Part shown: positions 52,043 to 60,870 of the stretch, piece after piece
Position numbering within the stretch: position 1 is the stretch's first letter
How the letters are laid out: every line of letters begins with the position of its first letter
Assembly: GCA_000004985.1 (NCBI GenBank)
Contig: GG738860.1
DNA length: 64,000 nt
Source: Naegleria gruberi
Lineage: Eukaryota
Direction: 5' to 3' (one strand)
Made by a program: the position numbers and the translations under genes
The notes under the pieces: generated by a model
What the model was told of the DNA's origin: nothing
Seen by the model: the letters and a program-made list of their open reading frames with translations, nothing else
Database searches by the model: none

Positions 52043-52837
52043 TACAAAGTAATAGTATACAAAATGATGTTCTAATTAAATTTTCTTATTGTAGGAAGAT
52101 CCCAACAATTTGTGAAACTAATGTGAAAGTACAATTCAACGTTCTTGATGATGATGGAAAACTGTAGTAATAATAACTATTACCAACACAACTACTACAG
52201 AAAAACTTTTCCAAAAAACGTTTGTTGTTGTTGATCGTTGAACACAAATAAATATTCTTCAAAATGGAGAATTTTTGCTACAGCCAACAAGAGCGTAAAA
52301 TGTTGTATTTTTTTTGACCCTTGTCGCGGTGTGTTCTCCCTCTATTTATAGTGGAGCCAAAAATGGAGCGATGGGTTTTAGCTTTAGTCAACCGCGCTGA
52401 TGAATCCCCACTTACCATCAAAAATGATGTTGGCCACTACTTTTACTGTTCGGGTAGTTGGTTAGTCCATCACTAGACATCAAATCACCAAAACAAACCA
52501 CCACCAACAATATTTTAAAGTTGAAGAGAGTATTTTCTAGTTGGAATATTTTACAACAACAATGCGAGTTGGAAATCGATATTTTCTACAACATGAAATT
52601 TATTCTTCTAGAATGGAAAAATTGATAAGGTTTCAAATAGGAAAGAAGATTCTCAGATATTTAATTTCATCAAATTTAGCAAGTTGATTATGAATTTATT
52701 ACAATAAGAAAAAAAATAACATCAATACTTATTGATACAACCTTGTGAACATCACTTTCTGATAAAAAATTTTTAATTAGAAATTCTAATTGGTTGAAAC
52801 AAACTACTAGGTGAAAGTGTAAAATAATTGTTGGAAA

Positions 52838-54362
52838 ATGTTGGCCATTCATCATCATCACAAACAACAAGAACACGAATTGGAAAGTCTAAAACAAAAT
52901 TATAAATTTAATATTGAAGCAGTTTTTGATCATGAAAGTGCTCGTGATTGTTTCCGAAAGTTTTTAAAGGATAATTTGAATGAAGATCCTTTCATGTTTT
53001 ATGAAATGGTTGAAAAGTATCAAAAAACAAGATTGGACAAGAATAGATTTGATATGGCTGTGGAAATTATGAATACTTTTATTGTTGTGAGTGCCAAACA
53101 TGAATTAAACTTGTCAATGACTATTAGAAATGATATTCTAAAGAATTGGAAGGTGATTCAGGAGCTAAATGAAGGGAAATCTGCTGAATTAATGGAATGT
53201 CCAACTGACTTGTTCCAAAAAGCTCAGAATGTCATCTTTTCCGAATTGAAACAAGATAATTTTCCAAGATTTATCGATTCTGAACAATTTGTAAAATATT
53301 TAAAGAAGGAAGCTAGAAAATCACAATTCAAGGGCTCACCAGCAACATTGTTAGACTTGTTGGGATCGAAAAAGGCAATGGAAAGGTCAGATAGTGGTCT
53401 ATCACATGAATTGACTGAATCCGGCTCTTTGGAAGACATGTCAGTGGTAGAAAACAAACCTTCAACTATTGCAGATAATGATAGACCTCTTGTTGATCCA
53501 CATTCTGTCTACATTTCATCAAAGGATTATGATATTGTGAATGAATTGATTTCTTCATTGAATGATAGTAGTAGATGGAAAGTAGTTGAAGAAAAGACAG
53601 GTATGAAAACATTGACCAGTGCTCATAATTATTATCTGAACCCATCAGATGGAGCTCTTCCTTTAATTTGTTTCACTGGTCTCGCTAAGGGAAATCACAA
53701 GGAATTATTTAATTTGATTTTTTCACAACATTTCGAAAAGAAAATGAGTGCTCTCCAAAAGAGGAAATTACAATTGGACTATATCAAAATTAATCCAGAG
53801 AATGGTGTGGATTATCCTAATTCAATAATTTACTCGGAACTCGATGTATGTATTCTTTTCAATTCTCAAATAATAATTAATTGAATTATTACAACAGACT
53901 CACTTTCCAATATCTAAAAGAGACCTAGTACTAGCCAAGACAGTTATACCAGATCTTTACAATCCAGAAACTGATGATTTTGATCGATATTCCATAATTC
54001 AGAAACCATGCACTCATCAAGATGCTCCAATCTCTAAGGAATTTATCAGAGTTTCACTCTTCTCAGCAATAATTGTAGAGAAAAAGACTAATGACACTTT
54101 GAGATACTACATGTTTGATTTTATGGATTTGAAAGGAAAAGTTCCAAAGAAACTCTTATCAGGAATTGCACGTTTTGCTGCTAAGGAATTTCATAAATAT
54201 CTCCAAAAACAATTTATCAATCCCAGAGATGGACGAATCAAATCACCCTCAGCCGATTCACCAACAGAAGAAGAATTATATAGCTCTGAAGGAATGGTTG
54301 AGTTGCTTCATGATCATATCAATTACATTCGAGAACACATTCTCCCAAAGAATACACTCTAA
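52838..54362 (+). CDS. RGS domain protein with C-terminal START lipid-transfer domain; 2 exons
   Basis: Exon 1 runs 52838 to about 53845. Its RGS domain reads SARDCFRKFLKDNLNEDPFMFYEMVEKYQ...IRNDILKNW. A GTATGT..cag intron of about 52 nt follows, and exon 2 runs from about 53898 to 54362. The START-like region spans the junction: MKTLTSAHNYYLNPSD...IYSELD|THFPISKRDLVLAKTV...LRYYMFDFMDLKGKVPKKLLSGIARFAAKEF. Confidence 0.75.
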
Positions 54363-54982
54363 TTTGTCTAAATTTAATTATGTTGTGAAGGACAAGTTTT
54401 TTGATAAACATAAATTCAAAGAGATTTATTATTGGAATCATAACTAAGGAAAGAAAGCATGTTATATGATGTTTGAAGTTTCAATTTCGATTTGATCAGA
54501 AAATAGAAAATGAGAAACCAAAACTTGCATCCATCAATTCAGGAGTTAAATATTCAATTTATAGAAGGGTGATCAACCTAATCAATATCTTCAAACAAAA
54601 CCTGAACCAACAAGATTCTGTCTTCGTTGCCTTCACTGTTCATACAGTCAAAGACTGTAGCGGGATTGTCGTCATATTCCTGGCAGGCTTCCCGTCCAAT
54701 GAAACCTAAAAGAATATCCAAAAATTAATGTTACTAAATTGTTAATAACTTAATTACTGAAAGTTTGTATTGAGTTGGTCGTGGATCGATTACAGAGCTT
54801 AATAGGTTAACCACTTTAAGTATTACTAAGTAGCATTAAGTTTTGCAAAGAAGTTCCATATTCTTTATATTCATTGCATTGATTTACCTTTGCTATTAAT
54901 CGTGACTCGTTATATTTGGAAAAGATTCGTCGTGCCAATGCTATCATGTTAATGGACACAATGGAAGATGATGAACTGAATG

Positions 54983-55100
54983 GCTACGGCCATATCACGA
55001 TGAATGCACCTCATCCCGTCCGATTTGAGAAGTTAAGCATCGTCGAGCCACATCAGTACTGAGGTTGGAGACAACTTGGGAACCTGTGGTGCTGTAGTCT
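54983..55100 (+). rRNA. 5S ribosomal RNA gene
   Basis: The sequence GGCTACGGCCATATCACGATGAATGCACCTCATCCCGTCCGATTTGAGAAGTTAAGCATCGTCGAGCCACATCAGTACTGAGGTTGGAGACAACTTGGGAACCTGTGGTGCTGTAGTCT matches the universal 5S blocks (ACGGCCATA, CATCCCGTCCGAT, GAAGTTAAGC, GTACT, GGGAA...GGTGCTGTAG). The ends pair to form helix I, and a T-run lies downstream. Confidence 0.8.
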
Positions 55101-55617
55101 ATTTAAATTCAACTTTTTAGATGTCGATTTTCAGAACAATTTGAAAGTTCAATAAACTTGTGAATAATTAATGCTTCAAAGCTTATAAAAAGTTTAACCA
55201 CAATTATTAATAGATTTTAAATTAATTGAATACATAGAGAGATCAACATTCATCATTCCATAGCAATCACACTGCAATCCAACAACCAAAGGTATCAGCA
55301 AAAGGCAACTTATGGGTTAGGGTATTCGATTGCTGTGAAGTGGGTACACTAGCTCAGTTGTCTTTTTTTCTATTTCCCAATCAATGAGTGCTTTTGGAGT
55401 ATGTTGATACATTTATTATTTACAAACTTTTTTGTTACAAATTTCAATCGAAATGCCTGAGAAATTTTTTAAAATGAAAGTGCCCAATCATTGATTATTT
55501 TCTCTATGGTTTTAAGAAATGAAACTTTGAAAATTGAATCTTAGCTAGATTACATATAATTTATCATATAATGATAAAATTAAATGTCAAATATAGGAGA
55601 TGGAGTCAAAAATTAAT

Positions 55618-55688
55618 CTCGAGTGCCGGGAATTGAACCCGGGTCGCCAGAGTGACAGTCTGGAATGCTACCACTATACCACACCCGA
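55618..55688 (-). tRNA. tRNA-Asp (anticodon GUC)
   Basis: The reverse complement is TCGGGTGTGGTATAGTGGTAGCATTCCAGACTGTCACTCTGGCGACCCGGGTTCAATTCCCGGCACTCGAG. The anticodon loop is CTGTCAC. Confidence 0.9.
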
Positions 55689-56251
55689 TTTCACATGTTG
55701 TATCACCAGTAACAGTATTTGTAGTTGTTCAAACGGATTACCATAAAAGGAACCTTAGTGTTTCTTTTTAATATAATTATACTTACATATATGTATACCT
55801 ACTGAGAATGGATCCATACAATCGATTACTCCAACGAACTAAATTTTGAATCTGCTAATTGTCAACAAATGATATTGTTAAACAAAATACAAACACTATG
55901 AAATGCACAACTTCATTCTAAACATTGTATTAGAAAAATTGGAAATAGGAAAGAATCGGTAAAATTGTCTCATAGTGATTCTCTCTTGTTTATGGCCATA
56001 AATACTTTTTTGGACAGTTTCGTATGAAATTGGGTTTTGTAATATTTATTTTCTATGACATGTCATGCATAATTTCTTGTACTTGCCATCTCAATGGCAC
56101 ACAAGGGTCACAACAAATTTTTTCTTCAAGAGGCACCACCTCCTTCTTGCTTGTTATTTCCAAATTTAAACTATGCGTGCTGTCAATAAACTGAAAAGCA
56201 AATGTCAAATGTTTTCTCTTCATCGCTTAAAAAAACAAACACACAATAACA

Positions 56252-59200
56252 ATGGCAATTGGAATCTCGTTCATTCCTTTGGCTAGTTACACAATTTTGT
56301 GTATTATCATGCTAATTGTTGTTGGTGGTGGACATGTTTCGTCAACATTAGCTGAAGAAACTAAACCTTTCCCAGTAATGAGAATGTTTAATTTGAAAGC
56401 AAGCCATCATTCCACCTCCACAACAAGTGATGATTCCATCTCCATGGTTTTAGGAAAGATTAAACAACTTCCTTTCATCCCAACTACCATGCACCCATTC
56501 ACCAGCAATTCCCAATTGACCAAAGCAATCGCTTCAGATCCTTACGATTTGGCTGAATATCCTCACTATAAGAAAGTCTCTGAACAACAAGTTAGAAGCA
56601 TGTACTCTAATATTGTCAATAGCAAAGCATCTAAAAGAAGTATCAAGAAAAATCTTGACATGTTGGTTACAGAAAGTGTTGATTATGTCAACTTGAATGA
56701 TGTTTCTCGTTTTTCAGCAATGGGATCTTTGCATAGATATTCTGTTGATGCAAATGTTTTATCAGGTGTTGCTTCATTGGATTATGAGCAAAATGTATGG
56801 GATGTCACATGTTCTGTCCTGTCAGATGAACAAACTGAAATTGTTGTTGATTTTGCAAATGGTCATACAACTGCCATGAAATGGGTACCAGGTACAAGAA
56901 TTATCATTGGAAAGCAATGGAATTGTTATGGTGATTTGACTGATCAACTTTACAATAAGGATCAAGCAAGATTTTACTTGATTTTGACAAGATCTATTAT
57001 CGTAACAGATGAAAACATGTTGAGAATTAAATTCCTCACACAACCACTCACCTTCTCTCAATTATTTATGAATGGTAGAGTTGAATATTCTTCCACACCT
57101 CTCTTGACAGAATCTTTGGACGAAACTAATGTTTTCACTCAAGGTGCATCTTCAAGAAGTCTCAGATCAAGAAAGGCACAATTTTCTTACACTAAAAGAA
57201 TGGCAGCATTCAATTTCAATTACAATGATGCAACTGGTCAACCTGTCAATGATGAAGTTACCATGTATGATCAGGATGGTTTGAAAATTATTTGTGAAAA
57301 GTGTTATGCTTATTTGAATACCGAATTCAGAGTAGAATTTGAGTTTTCATGGACTCAATTACAAGTTACCAAGGCAGAAGCATCTGTCGGTGGTCAATGG
57401 AAGGCAACTGCCAATGTCAAGGCCAGTATTACAAAATCTTTCCAAAAAAAGATTGGTCCAAACACTATTATTCAAACTCCACCAATTGGTTTGACATTCT
57501 TCATTTGGGTAATTCCAGTTTATGTAGATTTCACTCCAAAACTTCAATATTCCTTCAATTTCCAATTGACTGGTACTTTGGAATATTCCAGAAAGTTTGA
57601 TATGGCCTATGAGAAGTATATTGGTTTCTCATATACACCAGAAGCAGGTTATAATAAGGTTACTAGAGGTGATGATGCCATTTCCTTCACAAGTTCTTCA
57701 CCTGGTCTTCGTATTGAGCTCGATGGGTCAATTGAGGTTGCACTCATTCCAGCATTGGATATTACTTTCTATAAATTGGCAACAGTTTCGATTGGAATTG
57801 TGCCATCTTTGAAAGCAGATTTACATGCAGAAGGTATCATTTCCTCACTTGATAATTACAAGGCATTCGTTAGTGTCAAATGTTCTTACAAGATTGGTTT
57901 GACATTTGATGTTTTAATCAAGAACTTTGAATTTACTTTATTAGATTATCAACCAATTGAAAAATTGAGTGGAACCTATTCCATCCAATCAGCATCCTAC
58001 AAGGCAATCAATCCAAATGATCAAATCTATTCCAAAGATAATTTACTCCCAACCATTCCAGACACAGCAACAACTTCCAACACCATGTTCTCATTCGAAA
58101 TTAGTGGATTGACAGGTAATTACTACATGGAATATCAATATCAAGATATCAAATTGAGCCCATTGCTATACAGAACTGCACCAACTCAATCCTGTGTTTC
58201 AGGTTCTGTCTGTAAAATTGCCGAATTGAAACCTGACTTTAGTTATTCCTATCTTTACTTTAGATTTTTGAAGGATGTTCCATTGTGGTTTGATGATACT
58301 GTATTGGTGGATTATATTGAGCAGAAGAATTATGTTACTACTCAATCGAGTCAAACCATATTTGGTAATACTAATGCTAAAGTTATTGTAAAGCCAACTG
58401 ATTTGACAATTTCATTTTCGAATACTCCAACTAATTCGTTTAAATTACCAACTGGTATTAGTACTATTAATGTAAAATTATCTCCAATCAATAGTTTGTA
58501 TTACATTTCATTTACAACAGATAGTGCCATTTCCATCACAAACGTTGCCATGCAATTTAGCTCAGATTCGAATGGTTTCCATTATGCTTTCAATGGAACT
58601 CTTCCTGGAGGTACAATTTTAATTTCAAATTCTGTTTCTGACAATAATTTGAAATTCCATCAATATTTCTCATTTGATTTGACAAAGGAGAAACAAACTT
58701 TAACTCCGGCACCAACTCCTATTACAAGTATGAATGCTATTAGTTCATTCCTACAAGTGGTAAAGAAGAATTCTCCAAGATATGCCGTCTCTGCAAAGAT
58801 TAAAGGTAATTTCGTTGTCATGATCTTTGAAGGTTGGGACAATGGAGTTTCTTTCGTTCAAACTAAAGGAAGAAAGTTTAGTCAAACCTCAATTCCTATT
58901 AAGAATGGAAATGTCACTCTCACTGAGCCATTATCTTATTACTGGACTATTTCCATGGAAAATGACTTTGGTTCATCGAGTCATTACATTGCAGCTCAAT
59001 TCCTTCCTGTTGATTCGTATGGTTTCATATTGGAAAGTGTCAAGATTGATCCATATACTGAATTGAGTGTTTCAAGTTCTAATACTTTGGAGGATGTAGA
59101 CAATGCCATTATTAATCAAGTTTCTAGCGTTAATTTGTATCCTTACATGGCAGTTTCTAGACCAGATTCGAATAGTTTCACTGCCAGATTAGGTAACTCT

Positions 59201-60610
59201 GTATTTGATGTTTTTAACAATTTAAAGTCTCAAATCTCACTTTCCATTCAAAAATCTGCTCGTATCCCCATTGACAATTCCTATCTCAACGCCGACGGCT
59301 CATTAGCTCTTTCACTTTCCTCCTCAGCCAACGTTACAATCTTTAACAATTACAAATTATTGAATGGTATGGCATCTGTTGGAAAGAAATTCGAAAGTGC
59401 ACTTTCATTTGCAGTTTCATGTGATACCTTATTGAGTGTTATTGGTGATTTGAGTAGATCTGGTGATATTTTCATTAGAATTTTGGATGGGTTGACCAAT
59501 AGAGCTCTTGAAAATAGAGGATTTTCCATTAGTTTGGAATTGGCAAAACCAAACTCTGATATAGTTTCAATTCATATGGTTAATTCCAAATCTGGTTTGA
59601 ATGAGGCATTGTTTAATGTTGATTCACCTTCTAAAATCTTGAGTTCATGCAATTCGAATCCAACCTATTATGTCAGAGTTATTCTCACACGTTTGGATGT
59701 TTCTCTCTCAAGTAAGACAGTTCAAGTAGAATTCTCGTTCAGTAAGAAGGTTCTTAGCACTCTCCCACAAACAAGAAGTATTCTATCCGAATCCATTGAT
59801 CCAAAGACGAAAGGTATTTCCATTTTGGATTTGAGTGATTTAATTCAAAAAGAAAAGAGTTTGGGAAGTATTGGTATTGTATTGCAAGCTAATACTCAAA
59901 ACTGCAATATTGACATGTATATTAATAGTAATAATGCAAGTGCTCCTCCATCTTTCTTTGATCCAGCAACAATATTCGATTCCACTTCAAGAAATTCCCT
60001 CACTTATGAAGCATTGCCAATTTCCTTCCTTTCTTCATATGGTTCCAGTGTCATGCTTTATTCTGAAAGTGCATGTACTTTTGATTTATCCTATTCTCAA
60101 TTGAAACTTACCTATTTGACAATGAAATTTATAGATTTGAAGGGAAGTGCAGTTGATAGTGTGATTTTCTATTCAAACACCTCAACAACCATTCAATTAC
60201 TTATCAATGATGAAAATCATTCATTCGAAAAGACTTGGGTAACTTCACTTCAATCAAATCCATCATTGATTTTCTCAATTTTCAAATCTACAAAGAAATC
60301 AGATGGAACAGCAGCTAAATTGAGTGATTATTTCAAGAGTGCTGTTTGTAATTTAGTTAATGCTCAAACTCTTCAATTCGAAATGATTCCAAAGAGTGGA
60401 GTTGTCTTTACCAATATTTTATCAATTGAATTCAATGCTCAAAATTCAATGTTCACATCAAGATATAATTTGAGATCATCAAATGTTGTTAGTTTGGGAG
60501 AGAATGTTCAACCTATTGTTTACAAATCTACATCTTCTGGTCAACCAAAGGGAGGACAATCTGGAAGAATGAATGGAGGAAATGGCTTGAATTTGTTGTT
60601 GGTTTGTTAA
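56252..60610 (+). CDS. very large (1452 aa) secreted S/T/N-rich hypothetical protein; intronless
   Basis: Real ATG, then signal peptide MAIGISFIPLASYTILCIIMLIVVGGG. The ORF is uninterrupted for 4.36 kb, with no recognisable domains. Confidence 0.6.
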   Translation: MAIGISFIPLASYTILCIIMLIVVGGGHVSSTLAEETKPFPVMRMFNLKASHHSTSTTSDDSISMVLGKIKQLPFIPTTMHPFTSNSQLTKAIASDPYDLAEYPHYKKVSEQQVRSMYSNIVNSKASKRSIKKNLDMLVTESVDYVNLNDVSRFSAMGSLHRYSVDANVLSGVASLDYEQNVWDVTCSVLSDEQTEIVVDFANGHTTAMKWVPGTRIIIGKQWNCYGDLTDQLYNKDQARFYLILTRSIIVTDENMLRIKFLTQPLTFSQLFMNGRVEYSSTPLLTESLDETNVFTQGASSRSLRSRKAQFSYTKRMAAFNFNYNDATGQPVNDEVTMYDQDGLKIICEKCYAYLNTEFRVEFEFSWTQLQVTKAEASVGGQWKATANVKASITKSFQKKIGPNTIIQTPPIGLTFFIWVIPVYVDFTPKLQYSFNFQLTGTLEYSRKFDMAYEKYIGFSYTPEAGYNKVTRGDDAISFTSSSPGLRIELDGSIEVALIPALDITFYKLATVSIGIVPSLKADLHAEGIISSLDNYKAFVSVKCSYKIGLTFDVLIKNFEFTLLDYQPIEKLSGTYSIQSASYKAINPNDQIYSKDNLLPTIPDTATTSNTMFSFEISGLTGNYYMEYQYQDIKLSPLLYRTAPTQSCVSGSVCKIAELKPDFSYSYLYFRFLKDVPLWFDDTVLVDYIEQKNYVTTQSSQTIFGNTNAKVIVKPTDLTISFSNTPTNSFKLPTGISTINVKLSPINSLYYISFTTDSAISITNVAMQFSSDSNGFHYAFNGTLPGGTILISNSVSDNNLKFHQYFSFDLTKEKQTLTPAPTPITSMNAISSFLQVVKKNSPRYAVSAKIKGNFVVMIFEGWDNGVSFVQTKGRKFSQTSIPIKNGNVTLTEPLSYYWTISMENDFGSSSHYIAAQFLPVDSYGFILESVKIDPYTELSVSSSNTLEDVDNAIINQVSSVNLYPYMAVSRPDSNSFTARLGNSVFDVFNNLKSQISLSIQKSARIPIDNSYLNADGSLALSLSSSANVTIFNNYKLLNGMASVGKKFESALSFAVSCDTLLSVIGDLSRSGDIFIRILDGLTNRALENRGFSISLELAKPNSDIVSIHMVNSKSGLNEALFNVDSPSKILSSCNSNPTYYVRVILTRLDVSLSSKTVQVEFSFSKKVLSTLPQTRSILSESIDPKTKGISILDLSDLIQKEKSLGSIGIVLQANTQNCNIDMYINSNNASAPPSFFDPATIFDSTSRNSLTYEALPISFLSSYGSSVMLYSESACTFDLSYSQLKLTYLTMKFIDLKGSAVDSVIFYSNTSTTIQLLINDENHSFEKTWVTSLQSNPSLIFSIFKSTKKSDGTAAKLSDYFKSAVCNLVNAQTLQFEMIPKSGVVFTNILSIEFNAQNSMFTSRYNLRSSNVVSLGENVQPIVYKSTSSGQPKGGQSGRMNGGNGLNLLLVC

Positions 60611-60789
60611 TGACAATCTTGTTGAATATTGTTTTATTGTTGTAATTGAATAAAAACTTCATCTATTCATTGAATGATCATTGTGTATTAATGAATAATA
60701 ATAATTAATATTGAATTTAAATTGAAACACGGAAATGAAATTCTAAGATAGTAATTCCGAATACAAAAACAAAGAAAGACAAAACAAAA

Positions 60790-60870
60790 CGTTGAGGATG
60801 GGATTCGAACCCACGCGGATTACTCCACCAACTTAGCAGGCTGGCGCCTTAACCACTCGGCCACCTCAAC
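60790..60870 (-). tRNA. tRNA-Ser (anticodon GCU), class II with long variable arm
   Basis: The reverse complement is GTTGAGGTGGCCGAGTGGTTAAGGCGCCAGCCTGCTAAGTTGGTGGAGTAATCCGCGTGGGTTCGAATCCCATCCTCAACG. The Ser-type D-loop (GGCCGAGTGGTTAAGGC), anticodon loop CTGCTAA and a long variable arm are all present. Confidence 0.85.

What the first reader, a model, noticed from the sequence alone, without database searches (positions are those of the whole stretch)
54983..60870. Dispersed chromosomal 5S rRNA gene within a Pol III island (5S, tRNA-Asp, tRNA-Ser)
A complete 118-nt 5S rRNA gene with all universal blocks lies 520 bp from tRNA-Asp on the opposite strand. tRNA-Ser lies 5 kb further on. In Dictyostelium discoideum the 5S genes are carried on the extrachromosomal rDNA palindrome. 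A chromosomal, tRNA-linked 5S copy therefore says something about rDNA organisation in this species, or marks an orphan or pseudogene copy. About 200 bp downstream of the 5S (near 55345-55375) there is also a tRNA D-arm-like fragment, tagctcagttg, followed by a T7 run. This could be a truncated tRNA or a small Pol III transcript.
Basis: partly seen in the sequence, partly recalled or inferred. Interest (0 to 1): 0.5.

Follow-up and report, generated by a model that had tools for sequence, protein, structure and literature searches.

The report
Ordinary dispersed 5S gene of Naegleria
This is an intact 5S ribosomal RNA gene beside a tRNA gene in the chromosome of the amoeba Naegleria gruberi (not Dictyostelium), one of about 279 such scattered copies already catalogued in 2012, so it is ordinary.

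Summary
A full-length 5S rRNA gene lies at 54982-55100 (+) (Rfam 105 bits). tRNA-Asp(GTC) lies 517 bp away on the opposite strand, and tRNA-Ser(GCT) 5.1 kb further on. The interpretation rests on the wrong organism. The neighbouring RGS gene is 100% identical to a Naegleria gruberi protein, so the Dictyostelium palindrome is irrelevant. In Naegleria the 18S/5.8S/28S genes sit on a 14-kb extrachromosomal circle that carries no 5S. A 2012 paper lists 279 chromosomal 5S genes on 117 scaffolds, and 72% of them have no other 5S within 10 kb. A lone chromosomal copy is therefore the norm here, not an orphan. This copy looks functional. Every consensus helix is paired, 18 pairs covary among relatives, box A is present, a T5 terminator follows, and an independent metagenomic copy differs by 1 nt. 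The 'Pol III island' is not supported. With 924 tDNAs in 41 Mb, 6-15 such 5S-tRNA neighbours are expected by chance. Two syntenic loci from relatives lack both genes, and 14 related 5S-bearing contigs hold no tRNA. The 'D-arm fragment' is a real 11-mer but not a tRNA. It is one arm of a stable, strand-specific hairpin that ends in T7. That hairpin is unexplained and is the only open point.

The parts
54982..55100 (+). 5S rRNA gene, full length (119 nt by Rfam; the mature ends need RNA data)
   Evidence: RF00001 at 105.4 bits, E 4e-22, model 1-120. All 39 consensus pairs are standard pairs in this copy, and 18 pairs show compensatory changes among 10 related sequences. It differs by 1 nt from the 5S in metagenomic locus L007.
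55031..55038 (+). Box A of the internal control region (AGTTAAGC, gene positions 50-57)
   Evidence: Exact match to the box A pattern N(G/C)(C/T)(C/T)AANC used in PMC3369914. Its function is inferred from the type 1 Pol III promoter model.
55061..55078 (+). Box C-like element (gene positions 80-97)
   Evidence: Best match in the gene to NNGRTGGGNGWCCNYNNG, with 2 mismatches. Inferred only.
55114..55118 (+). T5 run, the likely Pol III terminator of the 5S gene (a T3 lies at 55102-55104)
   Evidence: Read directly from the sequence. The related 5S copies also carry T4-T6 runs within 1-16 nt of the 3' end.
55300..55369 (+). Imperfect hairpin of about 25 bp (55300-55362) followed directly by T7 (55363-55369). 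Its 3' arm holds the tRNA D-arm/A-box-like 11-mer at 55350-55360. Function unknown.
   Evidence: MFE -25.5 kcal/mol, z -4.08 against 200 shuffles. Best of the 96 segments that precede a T>=6 run: -25.2 against a mean of -9.5, sd 4.1. Eighth among non-overlapping 70-nt loci on both strands, top 0.07% of windows. The opposite strand gives only -7.5 to -9.4. No Rfam match at E<=10. No similar sequence elsewhere in the window or loci. No counterpart downstream of related 5S genes.
55618..55688 (-). tRNA-Asp(GTC) gene, convergent with the 5S; its own T5 terminator is at 55608-55612 (read on the - strand)
   Evidence: ARAGORN; RF00005 at 57.1 bits; downstream sequence ATTAATTTTTGAC.
60790..60870 (-). 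tRNA-Ser(GCT) gene, 180 bp downstream of the 1452-aa ORF, with a T4 run immediately 3' of it
   Evidence: ARAGORN; RF00005 at 62.4 bits; downstream TTTTGTTTTG.
52838..54362 (+). Flanking protein gene: RGS-domain protein in two exons (52838-53848 and 53898-54359, plus stop). It identifies the organism.
   Evidence: 100% identity to an NCBI N. gruberi 'regulator of G-protein signaling 8-like protein'; tblastn exon map; Pfam RGS match.
56252..60610 (+). Flanking 1452-aa ORF with no Pfam domain; it forms the right-hand boundary of the 1.9-kb intergenic spacer that holds the 5S and tRNA-Asp
   Evidence: ORF list; no Pfam family at E<=0.01.

Best explanation
The 5S at 54982-55100 is one ordinary member of the dispersed chromosomal 5S rRNA gene family of Naegleria gruberi, which has about 279 copies. 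In this genus the 18S, 5.8S and 28S rRNA genes are carried only on a multicopy 14-kb circular extrachromosomal element that has no 5S gene. The 5S RNA is therefore supplied from single-copy units scattered through intergenic spacers of the chromosomes. The likely mechanism is inferred from the standard type 1 Pol III model. Internal control elements (box A at +50-57, a box C-like element at +80-97) recruit TFIIIC and TFIIIB, RNA polymerase III starts at or near 54982, and it terminates at the T-runs just downstream (T3 at 55102, T5 at 55114). The transcript is trimmed and joins the large ribosomal subunit. The nearby tRNA-Asp and tRNA-Ser are independent Pol III genes with their own terminators. 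They are close to the 5S because both families are very numerous (924 tDNAs, 279 5S) and confined to short intergenic spacers, not because they form a functional unit. Shown here: gene identity, structural integrity, organism, family size and dispersal, and lack of positional conservation. Inferred: that this copy is transcribed, and the promoter mechanism.
For: Organism: the adjacent gene is 100% identical to an N. gruberi protein on a 537-kb contig, and GC is 32-36%. Gene integrity: RF00001 at 105.4 bits, full length, no non-canonical pair. All 39 consensus pairs are kept, and 18 covary among relatives. Box A is exact, box C has 2 mismatches, and a T5 lies 14 nt downstream. The copy is 1 nt from an independent copy in unrelated flanks (L007). 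Family: PMC3369914 reports 279 N. gruberi 5S genes that are not located with the rDNA unit. Its Table S1 places them on 117 scaffolds; 200 of 279 have no other 5S within 10 kb, and the median gap is 34 kb. The extrachromosomal element carries only 5.8S, 18S and 28S (PMC5805870). All 14 related metagenomic contigs with a 5S match hold a single 5S, and the flanks of the 12 compared are unrelated. Chance adjacency: with 924 tDNAs (PMC2888827) in 41 Mb, P(a tRNA within 520 bp of a given 5S) is 0.023, or 0.054 if both families are confined to non-coding DNA. That gives 6-15 such pairs genome-wide by chance. The syntenic loci in N. lovaniensis (L001) and a further relative (L017) have RGS followed by a PROPPIN gene, with no 5S and no tRNA.
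Against: No expression data are available, so this copy could be silent. It has T at gene position 24 (55005, loop B) where L007 and 10 of the 11 more distant relatives compared have A. Whether T is common among the other 278 copies could not be checked, because the N. gruberi genome is not searchable with these tools. No TATA-like element or other conserved upstream motif is evident, although PMC3369914 reports a TATA box for its example. TFIIIA was not found in N. gruberi by that paper, so the type 1 promoter mechanism is assumed rather than shown. The window holds 5 tRNAs against 1.44 expected (P=0.016), so some regional enrichment of Pol III genes is not excluded. The test on relatives is weak: 0 tRNAs in 40 kb against 0.9 expected, P=0.41.
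Confidence: 0.88

Rival explanations
1. The 5S, tRNA-Asp and tRNA-Ser form a genuine Pol III gene cluster (an 'island') kept together by selection, for example through shared TFIIIC/TFIIIB loading, nuclear positioning, or a chromatin-boundary role between the flanking protein genes.
For: The window has 5 tRNAs against 1.44 expected (P=0.016). P(at least 2 tRNAs within 5.8 kb of a 5S) is 0.029. The 5S and tRNA-Asp share one 1.9-kb spacer in convergent orientation. The spacer sits at a synteny break relative to two relatives.
Against: Adjacency at this distance is expected 6-15 times genome-wide by chance. The arrangement is absent from the syntenic loci of N. lovaniensis and L017. None of the 14 related 5S-bearing contigs has a tRNA gene in about 40 kb of sequence, although the power of that test is low. 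Each gene has its own terminator.
Confidence: 0.08
2. This 5S copy is an orphan or silent pseudogene, a recently dispersed duplicate that is no longer transcribed.
For: T at position 24 where most relatives have A. No recognisable TATA-like element at -30. The first T-run after the gene is only T3, and the T5 lies 14 nt downstream. Table S1 of PMC3369914 lists about 15-20 truncated or divergent copies, so pseudogenes do exist in this family.
Against: The copy is full length, scores higher against Rfam than 11 of the 12 full-length related copies, and has no broken pair. Its single difference from L007 lies in a loop. Box A is intact. Copies in Table S1 commonly differ from one another by 1-2 nt.
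Confidence: 0.1
3. The hairpin plus T7 at 55300-55369 is a separate small RNA gene or RNA element. Options are an uncharacterised Pol III transcript, a processed hairpin RNA, or a fail-safe terminator for read-through from the 5S. On this view it derives from, or mimics, the 5' part of a tRNA.
For: It is the best of 96 segments preceding a T>=6 run and has z -4.08 against shuffles. The stem depends on G.U pairs and collapses on the opposite strand. It lies on the same strand as the 5S, 245 nt past the 5S T5, and ends in a strong Pol III terminator. The 11-mer matches the tRNA A box/D arm.
Against: No Rfam match at E<=10, no B box, and no tRNA-model match. No copy elsewhere in the window or in 17 loci. 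No equivalent hairpin lies downstream of 5S genes in relatives, including the near-identical L007. Five non-tRNA loci in the same 64 kb fold at least as well. The strand asymmetry is partly a by-product of picking the better strand. The A-box-like motif sits at the 3' end, where it could not act as an internal promoter. There is no comparative or expression evidence.
Confidence: 0.15

Closest known systems
Dispersed chromosomal 5S rRNA gene family of Naegleria gruberi (279 putative copies; PMC3369914, Table S1)
   Same: Same organism. Same length class (117-119 nt), an internal control region, T-run terminators, no linkage to the rDNA unit, and a solitary position in an intergenic spacer. An independent copy (L007) differs by 1 nt.
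   Different: Nothing substantive. I could not map this copy to a specific row of Table S1, because the offset of the window within its scaffold is unknown. The paper's Table 1 labels the arrangement 'tandem', but its own coordinates show mostly solitary copies.
Naegleria closed circular extrachromosomal rDNA element (CERE, about 14 kb, about 4000 copies per cell)
   Same: It is the other half of the same rRNA supply system. It explains why the 5S must be encoded somewhere other than the rDNA unit.
   Different: The element carries 18S, 5.8S and 28S only, with no 5S (PMC5805870). The window is chromosomal DNA containing ordinary protein genes.
Dictyostelium discoideum extrachromosomal rDNA palindrome, which carries the 5S gene
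   Same: In both organisms the large rRNA genes lie on a multicopy extrachromosomal element.
   Different: In D. discoideum the 5S is on the palindrome (PMC5391098). In Naegleria it is chromosomal and dispersed. The organism here is a heterolobosean, not an amoebozoan.
Dispersed 5S rRNA genes of other eukaryotes, such as Neurospora crassa, Schizosaccharomyces pombe and Acanthamoeba (from my own knowledge, not checked here)
   Same: Single 5S units scattered among protein genes, each with internal promoter elements and its own T-run terminator. Sequences stay similar across copies although the flanks are unrelated.
   Different: A different lineage, and an unusually high copy number for a 41-Mb genome.

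Membership tests
5S rRNA (Rfam RF00001) | Covariance-model score above the curated gathering threshold over the full model | tested here: met
   105.4 bits against a gathering score of 38, model positions 1-120 of 120, E 4e-22.
5S rRNA (Rfam RF00001) | Three-way junction with helices I-V formed by standard pairs and supported by covariation | tested here: met
   No non-canonical pair is flagged in the alignment. There are 39 consensus pairs, 18 with compensatory changes among 10 sequences, and the window copy pairs at all of them.
5S rRNA (Rfam RF00001) | Pol III gene anatomy: internal control region (box A, box C) and a downstream T-run terminator | tested here: met
   Box A is exact at +50-57, box C has 2 mismatches at +80-97, and a T5 lies at 55114-55118. 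Promoter function is inferred, not shown.
5S rRNA (Rfam RF00001) | The RNA is expressed and incorporated into ribosomes | not testable with these tools
   No RNA-seq data are available.
Dispersed chromosomal 5S family of N. gruberi (PMC3369914) | Located in N. gruberi nuclear chromosomal DNA, not on the rDNA circle | tested here: met
   The flanking gene is 100% identical to an N. gruberi protein on a 537-kb contig. The window contains many protein ORFs and no 18S or 28S.
Dispersed chromosomal 5S family of N. gruberi (PMC3369914) | A solitary unit in unique flanks, not part of a head-to-tail array | tested here: met
   One 5S in 64 kb with no further copy or fragment found by BLAST. Its flanks are unrelated to those of 12 other copies. 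In Table S1, 72% of copies have no neighbour within 10 kb.
Dispersed chromosomal 5S family of N. gruberi (PMC3369914) | Sequence identical or nearly identical to the majority genomic copy | tested here: inconclusive
   The only close copy available, L007 from a metagenome, differs by 1 nt. The other 278 genomic copies could not be retrieved with these tools.
Pol III gene cluster ('island') | Density or adjacency of Pol III genes beyond chance | tested here: inconclusive
   P=0.016 for 5 tRNAs in the window. The 517-bp adjacency itself has P 0.02-0.05 per 5S, so 6-15 cases are expected genome-wide by chance.
Pol III gene cluster ('island') | The arrangement is conserved in related species or recurs at other 5S loci | tested here: not met
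   No 5S or tRNA at the syntenic loci L001 (N. lovaniensis) and L017. No tRNA in the 14 related 5S-bearing contigs.
5S on an extrachromosomal rDNA element (Dictyostelium type) | The 5S gene is physically linked to the 18S/28S unit on the extrachromosomal element | tested here: not met
   The window has no large rRNA genes. The N. gruberi element carries only 18S, 5.8S and 28S (PMC5805870). PMC3369914 scores 'located with rDNA units' as No.
tRNA gene or truncated tRNA (for the fragment at 55343-55369) | Match to the tRNA covariance model or ARAGORN; cloverleaf; B box | tested here: not met
   No ARAGORN call. No RF00005 match at E<=1 on 12 kb or at E<=10 on the 517-bp spacer alone. Only the 11-mer TAGCTCAGTTG (tRNA positions 8-18) matches.

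The most novel reading that the evidence does not exclude
The strand-specific hairpin of about 25 bp at 55300-55362, ending in a T7 Pol III-type terminator and carrying a tRNA A-box/D-arm 11-mer, could be an undescribed small RNA gene or a tRNA-derived RNA element. It lies between two convergent Pol III genes in Naegleria. Possible roles are a hairpin RNA fed into the RNAi machinery, or a fail-safe terminator or insulator for 5S read-through.
Probability: 0.12. Interest if true: 0.35.

Novelty: already known. Interest (0 to 1): 0.1.

Why it matters
It matters little as a discovery. Chromosomal, dispersed 5S genes in N. gruberi were catalogued in 2012, and their separation from the extrachromosomal 18S/28S element follows from the sequenced element. 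The useful outcome is corrective. The window is Naegleria, not Dictyostelium, so any first-stage findings from this window that were framed against dictyostelid biology should be re-read. Two small points may help annotators. [quoted passage not shown] Second, the 2012 paper labels the 5S arrangement 'tandem', whereas its own coordinates show mostly solitary copies. The hairpin with its T7 is a minor lead that small-RNA data could settle quickly.

Tried and rejected
1. Dictyostelid origin. Rejected: GC is 32-36%, and the flanking gene is 100% identical to an N. gruberi protein.

2. Retrieving other N. gruberi genomic 5S copies or the parent scaffold through exact-protein look-ups. This failed because the N. 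gruberi gene positions are not on record. The consensus of the 279 copies and a genome-wide 5S-tRNA distance test could therefore not be computed. Published counts were used instead.

3. Conserved synteny of the 5S/tRNA-Asp pair. Rejected: N. lovaniensis L001 and contig L017 keep the RGS gene followed by a PROPPIN gene, but have no 5S or tRNA.

4. Systematic 5S-tRNA linkage. Rejected: there is no tRNA in the 14 related 5S-bearing contigs. The power of this test is low.

5. Fragment as a truncated or permuted tRNA. There is no tRNA-model match. By eye, no sequence complementary to the putative acceptor strand GGTACAC lies upstream, and the B-box-like GGTATTCGATTGC needs two indels. Rejected.

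6. Spacer as a snoRNA. Only chance-level C/D-box matches appeared on the minus strand (19 bits, E 2.7-3.4), and no D box is evident. Rejected.

7. Hairpin as a repeated element or MITE. No second copy exists in the window or the loci. Rejected.

8. Hairpin as a regular accessory downstream of 5S or tRNA genes. It is not seen at 11 related 5S loci or at the other four tRNAs in the window. Rejected.

9. Conserved upstream promoter motif among 5S copies. None is visible in 80 nt of upstream sequence.

10. The Cell 2010 genome paper is not held in the library.
Full report
**Observation**

A scan of the whole window against Rfam finds one 5S rRNA at 54982-55100 on the + strand. It scores 105.4 bits (gathering score 38), spans model positions 1-120 of 120, and has no non-canonical pair flagged. 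ARAGORN and Rfam both find tRNA-Asp(GTC) at 55618-55688 (-) and tRNA-Ser(GCT) at 60790-60870 (-). The window holds three further tRNAs: Gly at 16507-16577, Trp at 22080-22150 and Ala at 22756-22828. The gap from the 5S to tRNA-Asp is 517 bp and the two genes are convergent. tRNA-Ser lies 5.1 kb beyond tRNA-Asp. The string TAGCTCAGTTG is at 55350-55360 and is followed by T7 at 55363-55369.

**Organism**

GC content is 32-36% across the window. The ORF at 52838-53884 is 100% identical to an NCBI Naegleria gruberi protein, 'regulator of G-protein signaling 8-like', on a 537-kb contig. tblastn maps that 490-aa protein to two exons, 52838-53848 and 53898-54359. N. gruberi belongs to Heterolobosea within Discoba. 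The statement that D. discoideum carries its 5S gene on the extrachromosomal palindrome is correct (PMC5391098), but it does not apply here.

**What is known for Naegleria**

The 18S, 5.8S and 28S genes are carried on 3,000-5,000 copies of a 14-kb circular extrachromosomal element, and no 5S is listed on it (PMC5805870). A 2012 comparative study searched the JGI N. gruberi genome and reported 279 putative 5S genes. It scored them as not located with the rDNA units and as having an internal control region and a TATA box. It found no TFIIIA but did find TFIIIB and TFIIIC subunits (PMC3369914).

I transcribed all 279 coordinates from its Table S1. They lie on 117 scaffolds. 200 of the 279 have no other 5S within 10 kb. 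The median gap between consecutive copies on a scaffold is 34 kb. The closest pairs are typically 1-3 kb apart rather than head to tail. A solitary chromosomal 5S is therefore the normal state in this species. At 279 copies per 41 Mb, a 64-kb window has a 35% chance of holding at least one.

**Integrity of this copy**

A scan of metagenome contigs for a 20-mer from loop C/helix III returned 15 contigs. Fourteen gave a 5S match, and each of these holds a single 5S. L007 differs from the window copy by 1 nt (T against A at gene position 24, in loop B) but has completely unrelated flanks. The other contigs differ at 26-37 positions.

In an alignment of 10 of these sequences, RNAalifold recovers the 5S fold with 39 pairs. 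Eighteen pairs show compensatory double changes, and the window copy forms a standard pair at every position. Box A (AGTTAAGC, +50-57) matches exactly. A box C-like element at +80-97 has two mismatches. A T5 run lies 14 nt past the 3' end. No upstream motif is shared among copies, which fits reliance on internal promoter elements. Nothing marks this copy as a pseudogene. Whether it is transcribed cannot be tested here.

**The 'Pol III island'**

N. gruberi has 924 tDNAs (PMC2888827). With uniform placement, the probability that a given 5S has a tRNA within 520 bp is 0.023. It rises to 0.054 if both families are confined to the non-coding roughly 42% of the genome. Chance alone therefore gives 6-15 such neighbours among the 279 copies. 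Five tRNAs in 64 kb against 1.44 expected gives P=0.016, so a mild regional enrichment cannot be excluded.

The arrangement is not conserved. The syntenic N. lovaniensis locus keeps the DUF747, TPR and RGS gene order, then continues into a PROPPIN/WD40 gene, with no 5S or tRNA. A second relative, L017, shows the same RGS-PROPPIN order, again with neither gene. None of the 14 related 5S-bearing contigs carries a tRNA. That test is weak, however, because only 0.9 tRNAs would be expected in the 40 kb scanned. Each gene also has its own T-run terminator. I conclude that these are independent Pol III genes sharing a spacer, which in N. gruberi lies at a synteny break.

**The fragment at 55345-55375**

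The 11-mer is non-random as a string: two occurrences against 0.01 expected, the other inside the true tRNA-Ala. It is not a tRNA. ARAGORN makes no call. RF00005 gives no match at E<=1 on 12 kb or at E<=10 on the 517-bp spacer alone.

The 11-mer forms the 3' arm of an imperfect hairpin of about 25 bp spanning 55300-55362, which runs straight into the T7. Several measures show that the hairpin is unusual:
- Its MFE is -25.5 kcal/mol, z = -4.08 against shuffles.
- Among 96 segments that precede a T>=6 run on either strand, it folds best: -25.2 against a mean of -9.5 (sd 4.1), with the next best at -19.5.
- Among all 70-nt windows on both strands it ranks eighth by locus, in the top 0.07%. Two of the seven loci above it are true tRNAs.
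- The stem depends on G.U pairs, so the opposite strand folds at only -7.5 to -9.4.

Other results argue against a function:
- The sequence has no second copy in the window or in the 17 fetched loci.
- No comparable hairpin follows the 5S in relatives, including L007, or follows the other tRNAs in the window.
- Five non-tRNA loci in the same window fold at least as well.
- The strand asymmetry is partly a consequence of choosing the better strand.

I leave the hairpin unexplained. I put the chance that it is a real RNA element at about 12-15%.

**Verdict**

This is an ordinary, apparently intact member of a published dispersed 5S gene family in N. gruberi. It sits next to unrelated tRNA genes at a distance that chance explains. 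Novelty: already known. Interest is low. The only open item is the hairpin with its T7.

Noticed in passing
window 55300-55369 (+): A stable, strand-specific hairpin of about 25 bp runs directly into a T7 run, midway between the convergent 5S and tRNA-Asp genes. It is the best of 96 T-run-preceding segments and ranks eighth among all 70-nt loci in the window. It has no Rfam match and no second copy.
   Followed up: partly
window 54362-56252, compared with L001 10001-13352 and L017 254-3430: In N. lovaniensis and another relative the RGS gene is followed directly by a convergent PROPPIN/WD40 gene. In N. gruberi it is followed by 5S, tRNA-Asp and a 1452-aa ORF with no Pfam domain. The Pol III genes therefore sit at a synteny break.
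   Followed up: partly
window 16086-16155 (-): This is the strongest non-tRNA hairpin in the window: -28.6 kcal/mol, a single stem, with the opposite strand at only -12.5. It lies about 350 nt downstream of tRNA-Gly on the same strand. It was not examined further and may lie in coding sequence.
   Followed up: no
window 16507-16577, 22080-22150, 22756-22828, 55618-55688, 60790-60870: The window holds five tRNA genes in 64 kb against 1.44 expected from the published 924 tDNAs in 41 Mb (P=0.016). tRNA-Trp and tRNA-Ala are only about 600 bp apart on the same strand.
   Followed up: partly
window 55005 (5S gene position 24): The window copy has T in loop B, where the near-identical copy L007 and 10 of the 11 more distant relatives compared have A. 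Whether this variant is common among the 279 genomic copies is unknown.
   Followed up: partly
Literature: PMC3369914 Table 1 against Table S1; PMC5805870: The 2012 paper scores the N. gruberi 5S arrangement as 'tandem', but its own coordinates show that 72% of copies have no neighbour within 10 kb. [quoted passage not shown]
   Followed up: yes
L003-L006, L008-L012, L014, L015 (metagenome contigs VFQM.../VFQO...): One or more unidentified relatives carry a 5S variant that differs from N. gruberi at 26-30 positions, largely through compensatory changes. The copies with enough flanking sequence sit in unrelated flanks, with a T4-5 run at or near the 3' end. This suggests that 5S genes are dispersed there too.
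   Followed up: partly
window 52389-52457 (+), 55210-55275 (-), 55521-55571 (-): Sub-threshold C/D-box snoRNA-like matches: sn2841 at 23 bits (E 0.43), snoZ175 at 19 bits (E 2.7) and SNORD30 at 19 bits (E 3.4). All are far below the gathering scores and are most likely chance.
   Followed up: no
window 54690-54700 (+): The 11-mer TCCCGTCCAAT matches the 5S loop C segment TCCCGTCCGAT (55014-55024) at 10 of 11 positions and lies about 300 bp upstream of the gene. It is probably chance. BLAST finds no other 5S-derived sequence around it.
   Followed up: no
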